A DNA stretch of 64,000 bases from Eledone cirrhosa (Eukaryota), in assembly GCA_964016885.1 (NCBI GenBank), contig OZ024742.1, positions 251,162,001 through 251,226,000 on the forward strand, in the 5' to 3' direction. Below the pieces are notes generated by a model, which was not told where the DNA came from, ran no database searches, and was given only the letters and a program-made list of their open reading frames with translations. A program made the position numbers and the translations under genes. Positions 1 to 60,058 of this stretch are shown here, piece after piece; position 1 is the first letter of the stretch; every line of letters starts with the position of its first letter.

Positions 1-49557
<49,557 letters not shown>

Positions 49558-55885: not shown

Positions 55886-56691
55886 AATGATATCTTATTG
55901 AGTACCTTTTTTAACTGTGGTTACCTCCTGATACCCATCAGGAATGCAAACGTAATTATATATATATAAATATAGATATATATATATAGTTATGAAATAA
56001 TTATATAATTATTATATAATAATTGTTTCTGAGGAAGACAGTAAAACAGATCTAGGATATTCAGACTAGAAATAGGTGGTGACATAACCAATATATCAAT
56101 TTACTATGATCAATCAACTCTCTGAAACAATTGTAAAATATTGAAGTAATTAAGAACCTATCTTTGACTTTTGTTTTATTTTCATTGTCCAATAGACAGA
56201 CATATATATATATGACTCTGTAGTTCAATTAGAATCTTCGATGGAACCTAATGCGATGAAAGCCTACTACAAAAACTAGAGCTTTCAAAGCATAATCTCA
56301 TTGAAATCATCTCTTCAAGACTGAATAAAGTTATAACAATGTTATTGGCCCCACCATAAACAGATTGATACCAGTGTATATATATATATCATCATCATCA
56401 TCGTTTAATGTCTATCTTCCATGCTAGCATGGGTTAGATGGGTTTGTCCCATTTAGAGGCAACTTGAGTCGGGTGACCATATCTTGCTCATATAGGACTG
56501 TTTGTGGCTGGTTTTCTACAGTTGGATGCCCTTCCTAGTGCCAACCACATTTACAGTATATGCAGGGTGCTTTTTGTTGTGACACCTACATGACCACTCT
56601 ACAGTGTTGGCTGGATATTTTGTGGTACCAACATAACATACATGTATATATATATATCATGATAATGGTATATGTATATATATTTGTGTAC

Positions 56692-57372
56692 ATGAAAGTA
56701 CAGTAGCTAGAGTCAGAACTGGCTGGAAAAAGTTCAGAGAGCTTATACCACTATTAGCTGCTAAAGGGTTCTCCCTAAAAATGAAAGGCAGGTTGTACGA
56801 TGCCTGCATACGAACAGCAATGTTGCATGGCAGTAAGACCTGGGCATTGTGTGCAGAGGATATACGCAGACTAGAGAGGAACGAAGCTTGCATGCTCCGC
56901 TGGATGTGTAACAGTAATATACGTGAACGGCAAAGCATAAACGAACTAAGGAAAAAATTAGAAATAAGAGGGATCAGATGTTGTTTACTCGAGAGAAGGC
57001 TACGTTGGTATGGACACGTGATGCGCATGAAAGTCGATAGCTGTATAACAAAGTGCAGGGCAATAAAGATAGACGGTAGCCACGGAATAGGCAGACCTAG
57101 AAAAACCTGGGACGAGCTGATAAACTCCGACCTCACACACTTACACCTCTCCAAGACAATGTCACTGGACCGAGACCTTTGGCGGTACTCAGTAACAGAG
57201 AAGACCCGCCTTACCTAAATACATAGTAAAACCTACTACAGCCAGTAGGCATCTCTAACAAAATACCCCCCCCCCCCGTCCCACCACCACCACCCCCACC
57301 CCATCCACACCACCCCGTTCTATGTAAAGTTATGTTGGTCCCACACCATCCAGGCCGAAACAAATGAGATCG
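56692..57372 (+). mobile_element. RTE-clade LINE 3' fragment
   Basis: ORF 56781-57218 KGRLYDACIRTAML...RLRWYGHV...GRPRKTW, then C-rich UTR. Confidence 0.92.
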
Positions 57373-58510: not shown

Positions 58511-59133
58511 GAGCTGATACATAAACGTGAGTATGCATATGTACACACATACACATATATATATATATACATATCAGTGTATATATGTATACACACACAT
58601 ATATATACATATACATATGTATGTATGAGTTATATTGAACATTAATAATCATTTTTTATTCGTTTCTAAACAAACAAGCCCAATTAGAAGCAGTGCCATG
58701 CTGGTGACCGGTTGTCACCTGTTTGTTCAACACTGGCTTTGAGGAACAATCAACATGTTTCTGGGTCATTACCCTTCATACAACTGGTTGCCGACATAGC
58801 ATAGCTTCAAATTGGGCTCGTTTGTTTACAAACGAATTGAACATTATTATTAATGTTCGATATAACCCATACATACATAAGTATATGTACATATTTGTGT
58901 GTGCATATATATATATACACAGATATGTATATATATATATGTGTGTGTGTGTACGTATGTATACTTATTTTTATGTATCAGCTGTGCTAGACCAAGAAAT
59001 AAAATTCTTATTTTATTTTTAATATTCGGCAACGCCAGCTGCAACTCGCTCACTATGCAAATGAGGCTACTCAGCCGATGTATACTTAAGAAAATACTAT
59101 ATATTTTCAACCATTCAACACATTGGCAGAAAG

Positions 59134-59178
59134 GTATACAGTCCTGATGAAGGGTAATGACCCAGAAACATGCTGTAC
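59134..59178 (+). ncRNA. Hammerhead-like motif, degenerate; inverted partner at 58746-58790
   Basis: CTGATGA-A-GGGT-aatg-ACCC-A-GAAACATG; the partner has palindromic AACATGTT but a mutated CTGA. Confidence 0.45.
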
Positions 59179-59488
59179 TTTTATGTATCAGCTGTGCTAG
59201 AGCAAGAAATAATATATATATATATATATATATGCACTCAGTATACTCTGTAATGTGGTTGGTGTTAGGAAGAACGTTTGACTGTAGAAACCATACCAGT
59301 GTGGAAAATGGACAAAATATGATGATGATAATGAGGCGTGTGTGTGTATATATATACAAAGGTTATATTTAATTTGTTGGAATTCAACAAACTTAAAAGT
59401 TTTATAACTGATATAAAGCACTCAACAGATTGGTGGAGTAAATATTCATTATATTAATAAATGGAAACTATATTTATAAAACCATAAT

Positions 59489-59556
59489 TATTTTATTATA
59501 TATATTTCAAGGGCAACCAAGGCAAATATTTTGGTGCACTTTCATCAGATAAAATA
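59489..59556 (-). ncRNA. Putative minimal type I hammerhead ribozyme
   Basis: tattttat-CTGATGA-aagtgcaccaa..ttggttgccctt-GAAA-tatata-TA-ataaaata: 8-bp helix I, paired helix II, palindromic helix III. Confidence 0.7.
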
Positions 59557-59729
59557 CAAAATTTGTTTTATGAATGTTGACATACCTGCCGAAGAACAAC
59601 CTTGACGGTTGGAGGTTCACTGGATATGGTTTTATAAATATAGTTTCCATTTATTAATATAATGTATATATATATATATATATATATAACAGAGTGTTGT
59701 AGTTTGCTTGAAGCATTGTTGAATAGGAA

Positions 59730-60058
59730 ATATAAATTTAAATAATTTTAAAAGCCATACAATGAATTAGAAAATTAAAGGTGCCAAGATAACAATAGAA
59801 TTTTACCGTAAAAAATTTAATTATCCCAAATATTTTCAGGTTTGAAAACCCATTATCAAGGGAGTATCCCTGTGAAGGTCTTCGAGGACTTAAAGGGTTG
59901 GTCGGAGATGAGTTGTTGATACTCCCTTGATAATGGGTTTTTAAATCTGAAAATATTTGGGGTAATTAAATTTGCTAAGGTAAAATTCTATCGTTATCTT
60001 GGCACCTTTAATTTTTTCTAATGCATTGTATGGCTTTTAAAATTATTTAAATTTATAT
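59730..60058. repeat. Fold-back element, ~138-bp arms, ~49-bp loop
   Basis: tataaatttaaata..gggagtatc vs gatactccc..tttaaatttata; loop holds a decayed hammerhead-like string. Confidence 0.92.

What the first reader, a model, noticed from the sequence alone, without database searches (positions are those of the whole stretch)
59489..59556. Complete hammerhead-ribozyme consensus in the loop of a fold-back element, sense to the TRP gene
Seen: the minus strand reads tattttat CUGAUGA [aagugcaccaa-loop-uugguugcccuu] GAAA uauaua UA auaaaaua. That gives a full catalytic core, an 8-bp helix I, a helix II with one mismatch and one bulge, a palindromic AUAUAUAU helix III and an AUA cleavage triplet. It sits in the spacer of a ~40-bp inverted repeat (59447-59486 / 59626-59664). 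Established: Penelope-like retroelements carry minimal type I hammerheads with palindromic helix III, thought to work as dimers. Inference: a possibly still active self-cleaving RNA on the same strand as the channel gene, upstream of it or in its 5' intron.
Basis: partly seen in the sequence, partly recalled or inferred. Interest (0 to 1): 0.72.

Follow-up and report, generated by a model that had tools for sequence, protein, structure and literature searches.

The report
Hammerhead stub of a Hydra retrotransposon
The ribozyme-shaped sequence is real, but it is one of about 35,000 similar pieces of a known kind of jumping gene scattered through this octopus-type genome, and this copy, which sits in a long intron of an ion-channel gene, is predicted to be misfolded and likely does not cut.

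Summary
The motif is at 59489-59556 (minus) as described (1 hit against 0 in 100 shuffled windows). It is the pLTR hammerhead of a Hydra-clade Penelope-like element (PLE). The genome holds 34,784 exact matches to the family pattern, about 0.7 per 64 kb. A parent with reverse transcriptase and GIY-YIG endonuclease between two pLTRs was found. The window copy is a 269-nt leader stub plus a 39-nt inverted 3' piece, between (TA)n runs: the published PLE insertion form. It lies sense in the 93-kb first coding intron of a TRPM2-like gene.

Across subfamilies the core is conserved and helix II covaries, so the ribozyme fold is under selection in the master elements. This copy looks like decaying debris: helix III needs a dimer partner and the intron has none, a near-private U>C breaks a distal helix I, and the fold-back arm captures that helix's other strand. 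Cleavage was not assayed.

Copy ends fall beside twin hairpins, which this scan found before on other DNA. Added here: a sharp fixed 5' end, a conserved splice-donor-like GTAYGT (no splicing seen) and a conserved C-C mismatch in helix II.

The parts
59489..59556 (-). Type I hammerhead: proximal helix I, CUGAUGA, helix II, GAAA, palindromic helix III, AUA cleavage triplet
59357..59625 (-). Main stub, 269 nt: pLTR/5' leader of a Hydra-clade PLE, from the family's fixed 5' end to its long 3' end
59626..59664 (+). Inverted 39-nt copy of the same element ending at the short 3' end; makes the fold-back with 59447-59486
59565..59575 (-). 5' strand of a predicted distal helix I; carries U>C at 59572 (28 of 29 other close copies have U)
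59472..59482 (-). 3' strand of the predicted distal helix I; lies inside the fold-back arm
59580..59585 (-). Conserved GTAYGT splice-donor-like motif (here CAG|GTATGT); use as a donor not shown
59418..59439 (-). First of two RCTCC-N-GAGYRC hairpin motifs, just 3' of the short end; the second lies beyond the long end and is absent from this stub
59357..59446 (-). About 90-nt tail present on the main copy only
59665..59688 (.). (TA)n flank (target); a shorter TA run at 59347-59356 flanks the other end
49159..49557 (-). Second coding exon of the TRPM2-like host gene; the intron holding the stub runs from 49558 to beyond the window (93,099 nt)

Best explanation
This is the hammerhead-bearing 5' leader (pLTR) of a Hydra-clade Penelope-like retrotransposon, inserted as a short fold-back stub into a TA repeat in the first coding intron of a TRPM2-like gene, where it is likely inactive debris. 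Shown: family membership, parent element, copy number, end positions, intronic sense location. Inferred mechanism of birth: a master element is transcribed from a fixed start in its pLTR; its RT/endonuclease nicks (TA)n and primes internally beside one of two hairpins about 91 nt apart. One end copied uncleaved RNA from the far hairpin back to the RNA 5' end (269 nt); the other copied 39 nt from the near hairpin before the two joined, giving the lopsided inverted repeat. Inferred ribozyme role: in the master, the hammerhead would cut only as a dimer (two pLTRs in one transcript) or with protein help. This solo copy is predicted not to reach the active fold.
For: Family: 40 best-scored of 2108 candidates give top matches at 92-96% identity; 34,784 exact family-pattern matches, control 0. 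Parent: L031 has pLTR-ORF-pLTR 3.7 kb apart with RT motif GGLYRDD and a GIY-YIG hit (E 1.5e-4, 22.4 bits, just under the 22.6 cut-off); L051 holds a 743-aa open frame. Hydra marks of PMC8557442 section 11 are present. Ends: 70 of 74 3' ends fall just 5' of one of two hairpin motifs; of 30 copies (of 67) picked on the 19-mer after CACT, 17 end within 4 nt upstream, 13 run on 81 nt or more, none between. Uncleaved template: of 96 copies anchored downstream, 82 hold both core halves and 72 an intact core plus triplet; of the 8 that begin inside or 3' of the ribozyme none clearly begins at the cut site, one is ambiguous. This copy: monomer helix III hairpin +4.7 kcal/mol; hammerhead fold 8.7 kcal/mol above the free fold without the arm and 19.2 with it; distal helix I probability 0.02 here against >=0.82 in 9 of 10 family copies; no same-family sense copy in the intron; 3 of its 4 rare substitutions are at CpG. 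Published metazoan PLE hammerheads showed no monomer cleavage and low dimer cleavage (PMC4209133, parts 1-2 of 4 read).
Against: The catalytic core, triplet and proximal helix I of this copy are intact. Folding predictions ignore tertiary contacts, proteins and co-transcriptional order; PMC11167929 (parts 1-2 of 4 read) found that a PLE hammerhead cuts when the element's protein is added. The proximal helix I in cleavage register is also improbable in 9 of 10 other family copies, so the model does not separate this copy on that helix. With longer 5' context the distal helix is >=0.9 in only 7 of 10 copies and it shows no two-sided change. The fixed 5' end could be an RT stop rather than a transcription start. 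TA flanks blur 3' ends by several bases. No reads cover this copy, so its transcription is inferred from exon-intron structure.
Confidence: 0.88

Rival explanations
1. The copy is an active or protein-assisted intronic ribozyme that cuts TRPM2-like pre-mRNA about 10 kb before the acceptor and tunes channel expression, in the manner proposed for the CPEB3 intronic ribozyme.
For: Sense orientation in the 93-kb intron; intact core and triplet; protein-assisted cleavage is known for one PLE (PMC11167929, part 2 read); CPEB3 precedent (PMC10919898, search listing only).
Against: 0.74 such motifs are expected per 64 kb; no dimer partner; broken distal helix and competing fold-back; CpG-type decay; no sign of selection on this copy could be tested.
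Confidence: 0.05
2. The stub belongs to a non-autonomous tandem retrozyme / circular-RNA family rather than being the end of a coding PLE.
For: Stubs far outnumber ORF-bearing copies (34,784 against 870 matches to an ORF N-terminal motif); animal retrozymes derive from pLTRs (bioRxiv 10.64898/2026.07.22.740005, abstract only).
Against: The same leader runs directly into the RT ORF in 16 of 30 ORF-motif loci; none of the 30 closest loci shows a head-to-tail array of the unit; copies do not begin at the cleavage site.
Confidence: 0.05
3. The fold-back is a MITE or DNA-transposon terminal inverted repeat that happens to hold a hammerhead-like sequence.
For: About 40-bp near-perfect inverted arms in a TA context.
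Against: One arm is an internal part of the element, arm length varies from none to over 120 nt among copies, and the element continues about 90 nt past the arm; the parent is a retroelement.
Confidence: 0.02

Closest known systems
Hydra clade of C-terminal EN+ Penelope-like elements, incl. Hydra-1_Obim of Octopus bimaculoides (Craig et al. 2021, PMC8557442; section 11, passages, supplement tables and part 2 read)
   Same: DKT, CxCx5C linker, CxxC and CxH around the EN E/N residues, GLYRDD, (TA)n target, type I hammerhead with palindromic helix III, inverted 5'-truncated copy plus one-sided tail.
   Different: A different family: its hammerhead and four diagnostic strings are not in the supplement. 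RWR in place of RWK; tail about 90 nt instead of the 30-40 bp given for PLEs; longer helix II with a C-C mismatch; repeat unit 3.7 kb in L031 against generally under 3 kb.
Minimal hammerheads of metazoan PLEs (Cervera and de la Pena 2014, PMC4209133; parts 1-2 of 4 read)
   Same: Thousands of mostly solo motifs, subfamilies with compensatory changes, palindromic helix III, opposite-strand pairs 100-700 bp apart.
   Different: First helix II pair is mostly A-U (59 of 71) rather than the conserved G10.1-C11.1; no extra nucleotide after A9; 8-bp helix I with a predicted distal extension; their largest reported set is about 9,000, here about 35,000 by another method.
Poseidon_Ac internal RT initiation (Frangieh et al. 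2024, PMC11167929; parts 1-2 of 4 read)
   Same: Two internal initiation sites define the tail; uncleaved RNA is the template; AT-rich target.
   Different: Here both sites lie in the 5' UTR before the ATG, each beside a repeated hairpin, and are inferred from genomic ends only.
5' UTR intron of D. virilis Penelope and Chlamys-3_cRei (PMC8557442 passages; PMC4209133)
   Same: Start site in the pLTR followed by a donor-like motif in the leader.
   Different: No acceptor or spliced product found here; if real, the intron would contain the whole hammerhead rather than end at helix I.

Membership tests
Type I hammerhead ribozyme | CUGANGA / GAAA core and NUH triplet | tested here: met
   in 82 copies only N7 varies freely
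Type I hammerhead ribozyme | Three helices, helix I open, pairing kept by compensatory change | tested here: met
   Helix II: 4 of 6 pairs change on both sides, 30 cells against 8.8 shuffled, 0/500 (but 49/500 for the pair count) in 24 hand-picked distinct copies of 60; positions 2, 3, 5, 6 paired in 68, 69, 66, 69 of 71; helix I kept mainly by G-U changes
Type I hammerhead ribozyme | Match to an Rfam hammerhead model | tested here: not met
   no hammerhead family among 78 matches at E<=1
Type I hammerhead ribozyme | Stable helix III as a monomer | tested here: not met
   probability 0.00-0.01, +4.7 kcal/mol; intermolecular 8-mer -3.2 kcal/mol
Type I hammerhead ribozyme | Self-cleavage | not testable with these tools
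   needs an in vitro assay
EN+ Penelope-like element | Single ORF with RT and C-terminal GIY-YIG between pLTRs | tested here: met
   L031 and L051; GIY-YIG E 1.5e-4, slightly below the Pfam cut-off; no Pfam RT hit on the fragments
EN+ Penelope-like element | Inverted 5'-truncated copy and one-sided tail | tested here: met
Hydra clade | DKT in place of DKG | tested here: met
   KSDKTNN in L031 and L051
Hydra clade | CxCx5C linker | tested here: met
   CNCRIKSNC / CNCRNKSNC
Hydra clade | CxxC and CxH around the EN E and N residues in place of CCHH | tested here: met
   L051 C-terminus, read by eye
Hydra clade | N-terminal RWK motif | tested here: inconclusive
   RWR in this family; RWK in other octopus families hit by the same pattern
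Hydra clade | (TA)n insertion preference | tested here: met
   most 3' ends run into TA repeats
Hydra clade | Placement in the Hydra branch of an RT tree | not tested
   no tree built
Non-LTR retrozyme | Head-to-tail tandem non-coding units | tested here: not met
   none among the 30 closest loci; leader joins an ORF

The most novel reading that the evidence does not exclude
Hydra-clade stubs are not random truncations but complete cDNA copies of a short leader RNA, made from a fixed transcription start to one of two hairpin-marked priming sites. The leader's hammerhead, with a distal helix I and an invariant C-C mismatch, lies inside a retained 5' UTR intron, so splicing would decide between ribozyme-free mRNA and ribozyme-bearing template. 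That would explain SINE-like amplification to tens of thousands of copies and give the PLE hammerhead a testable job.
Probability: 0.25. Interest if true: 0.55.

Novelty: new member of a known kind. Interest (0 to 1): 0.2.

Why it matters
For this locus, little: one such motif per 86 kb is the background, so a sense copy in a 93-kb intron is expected. For PLE biology the family is useful material: tens of thousands of copies with sharp ends and subfamily covariation define an extended hammerhead fold and the likely start and priming sites, which makes the open question of what PLE hammerheads do easier to test. If even a small share of intronic sense copies cut, it would show as an orientation bias in octopus genes.

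Tried and rejected
Rfam scan: no hammerhead hit, only AT-hairpin miRNA and tRNA-like noise. Back-translated pattern for the first coding exon: 0 matches because of an N>S difference; found by fetching neighbours. Sequencing runs: no RNA holder listed. Contigs of 4 runs laid on the pLTR-ORF junction of L043: two related-species runs laid nothing, and no GT-AG joint appeared in the other two; contigs break in repeats, so this is inconclusive. No reads were laid on the window copy, so its transcription and any cut RNA remain open. Search for a spliced genomic copy in one abundant subfamily: 0 matches (denominator not counted). Acceptor: TATCAG is shared by most ORF-joined copies but absent from two other subfamilies, so none is claimed. 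Pairing of GTAYGTC with GACATAC at the ORF start was considered and dropped: the GTACGTC subfamilies do not compensate. Raw counts of three 19-mers (55, 67, 521) are not comparable across subfamilies and were not used as a truncation curve. 5' end classes for L053-082 were unreliable for lack of matching references (6 at the fixed end, 9 longer, 15 called shorter). Helix I and III variation is partly fixed by the search pattern; searches use a downstream anchor instead. The 789-aa PLE ORF near stubs in L034 is unrelated. Literature searches for octopus + Penelope + hammerhead or Hydra gave no description of this family; the library lacks most subscription papers and Repbase/Dfam were not searchable; bioRxiv supplements were not seen.

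Full report
Observation. A descriptor with core, helix II, palindromic helix III and helix I finds it once in the window and never in 100 dinucleotide shuffles. Rfam does not detect it and the 68-mer alone folds no better than shuffles. The inverted repeat is real; its 3' arm starts 3 nt after helix I.

It is a dispersed repeat. The 139-nt spacer has 2108 candidates in the own genome; of the 40 scored, the full-length matches are 92-96% identical. A pattern fixing the core, helix III and proximal helix I but leaving helix II free has 17,553 + 17,231 = 34,784 exact matches and 0 for the reversed control, one per 86 kb or 0.74 per window. A 23-mer just downstream has 46,544 matches.

Parent element. 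L031 holds two same-strand copies 3.7 kb apart with a broken ORF between them: RT motif GGLYRDD, a CxCx5C linker and a GIY-YIG domain (E 1.5e-4, just under the Pfam cut-off). L051 has a 743-aa open frame. In 16 of 30 loci sampled from 870 matches to an N-terminal ORF motif, this leader lies 201-209 nt (GAAA to ATG) before the ORF. DKT, CxCx5C, CxxC/CxH in the endonuclease and (TA)n targets match the Hydra clade as defined in PMC8557442 section 11; RWK is RWR here. That paper lists one octopus family, Hydra-1_Obim, with another hammerhead; four strings of this family are absent from its supplement. No tree was built.

Anatomy of the window copy. Main stub 59625 to 59357 (269 nt, minus), inverted piece 59626-59664 (39 nt), TA runs on both sides. 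Arm length varies among copies. An inverted 5'-truncated copy and a one-sided tail are published PLE features. 3' ends are bimodal, about 90 nt apart, and 70 of 74 fall just 5' of one of two RCTCC-N-GAGYRC hairpin motifs (37 + 26 of 67, plus 7 whose reference had one motif mutated; 4 elsewhere; TA flanks blur ends by a few bases). I obtained this before reading earlier scan notes, several of which report the same twin hairpin on other DNA of this genome. 5' ends are sharp: of 30 copies (of 67, the window's own included) chosen on the 19-mer after CACT, 17 end within 4 nt upstream, 13 extend 81 nt or more, none between. I infer a transcription start there; an RT stop is the alternative. The window stub runs exactly from that end to the long 3' end.

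The fold is under selection in the masters. Helix II, free in the search, has 4 of 6 pairs changed on both sides (30 cells against 8.8 +/- 4.6, 0/500; pair count 49/500) in 24 distinct copies picked from 60. In 96 copies from the first 18 Mb of contig C1, anchored downstream of the ribozyme, 82 have both core halves and 72 an intact core and triplet; only N7 varies freely; helix I is kept by A-U/G-U/G-C exchanges. Helix II position 4 is C-C in 68 of 71 while neighbours covary. An 11-12 bp distal helix I is 97% paired in 16 copies, with two one-sided G-U changes and none two-sided, and is predicted at >=0.82 in 9 of 10 copies with short context and >=0.9 in 7 of 10 with longer context. Of 8 copies beginning inside or 3' of the ribozyme none clearly starts at the cut site (one ambiguous), in line with uncleaved RNA as template in Poseidon_Ac (PMC11167929).

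Host gene. The gene matches O. bimaculoides TRPM2 at 98% over the exon tested with about 23 coding exons on the minus strand of the window. The first 16 residues are encoded about 79 kb beyond the window, followed by a GT donor, so the stub is sense in a 93,099-nt first coding intron, about 10 kb before the acceptor. This rests on protein homology; no reads cover it.

Is this copy active? Probably not. Monomeric helix III costs +4.7 kcal/mol and has probability <=0.01. The intron has 4 sense and 9 antisense core-like motifs by a loose scan, and no other sense member of this family. Against the majority of 29 close copies it has 4 rare substitutions (3 at CpG), one common variant and a 2-nt loop insertion. 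U>C at 59572 goes with a distal-helix probability of 0.02-0.04, and the fold-back takes that helix's 3' strand, widening the gap to the hammerhead fold from 8.7 to 19.2 kcal/mol. Published metazoan PLE hammerheads did not cut as monomers and cut poorly as dimers (PMC4209133). Against this reading: the core is intact, the proximal helix I is also improbable in 9 of 10 other copies, and the Poseidon ribozyme cut when its protein was added.

Donor-like motif. GTAYGT lies 6-36 nt before the pattern in 26,164 of 34,784 copies while the spacer diverges, about 44 nt after the fixed 5' end, as for the 5' UTR introns of Penelope and Chlamys-3. No junction was seen in contigs (inconclusive), no spliced genomic copy in one subfamily, and no acceptor is shared by all subfamilies. 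It stays a lead.

Verdict. Real motif, ordinary context: a new octopus family of a known clade, one of tens of thousands of stubs, likely inert in this intron. Interest 0.2. The remaining novelty is at family level (fixed 5' end, distal helix, C-C mismatch, donor-like motif) and is untested at the bench.

Noticed in passing
window 59133-59180 (+) and about 58745-58790 (-): An inverted pair of another PLE-type hammerhead (helix II GGGTAATGACCC, GAAACATG); the plus copy lacks the cleavage triplet region and the minus copy has a damaged CUGA, so both look dead. The minus copy sits in the loop of a 209-nt fold-back (I2, I24).
   Followed up: partly
window 59730-60058: A second fold-back (arms of about 140 nt, 93-98%) abutting the stub, with a degenerate core-like sequence in its loop (I3 and I10).
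   Followed up: no
window 59580-59588 (-): A G>A change (1 of 29 other copies) turns the family's donor-like motif into CAG|GTATGT, a strong possible cryptic donor in the sense strand of the TRPM2-like intron.
   Followed up: no
window 3630 (+), 62426 (+), 24868 (-), 35137 (-), 41377 (-): Further CUGANGA...GAAA motifs with paired helix II, probably from other repeat families.
   Followed up: no
L034:1463-3829 (-); G000:C1:86.07-86.14 Mb: An open 789-aa PLE ORF (Pfam RVT_1 and GIY-YIG hits) of an unrelated family inside a 99% identical multi-kb duplication that also holds head-to-head Hydra stubs.
   Followed up: partly
L105, L113, L114, L117, L121, L124, L132: Other Hydra-like families with different leaders still carry a CTCC...GAGC-like hairpin shortly before the ATG (by eye).
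   Followed up: no
window 19633-21108 (-), 35938-37688 (-), 42579-43401 (-), 56637-57218 (+): Several LINE reverse-transcriptase fragments in introns of the channel gene; family not determined.
   Followed up: no
window 37796-38833 (+), 41016-41741 (-): Transposase-like fragments, mariner-type by recalled resemblance only.
   Followed up: no
G000:C1:217.3-217.7 Mb: Nine same-strand matches of the family 19-mer at 30-60 kb spacing, suggesting a large tandem segmental array.
   Followed up: no
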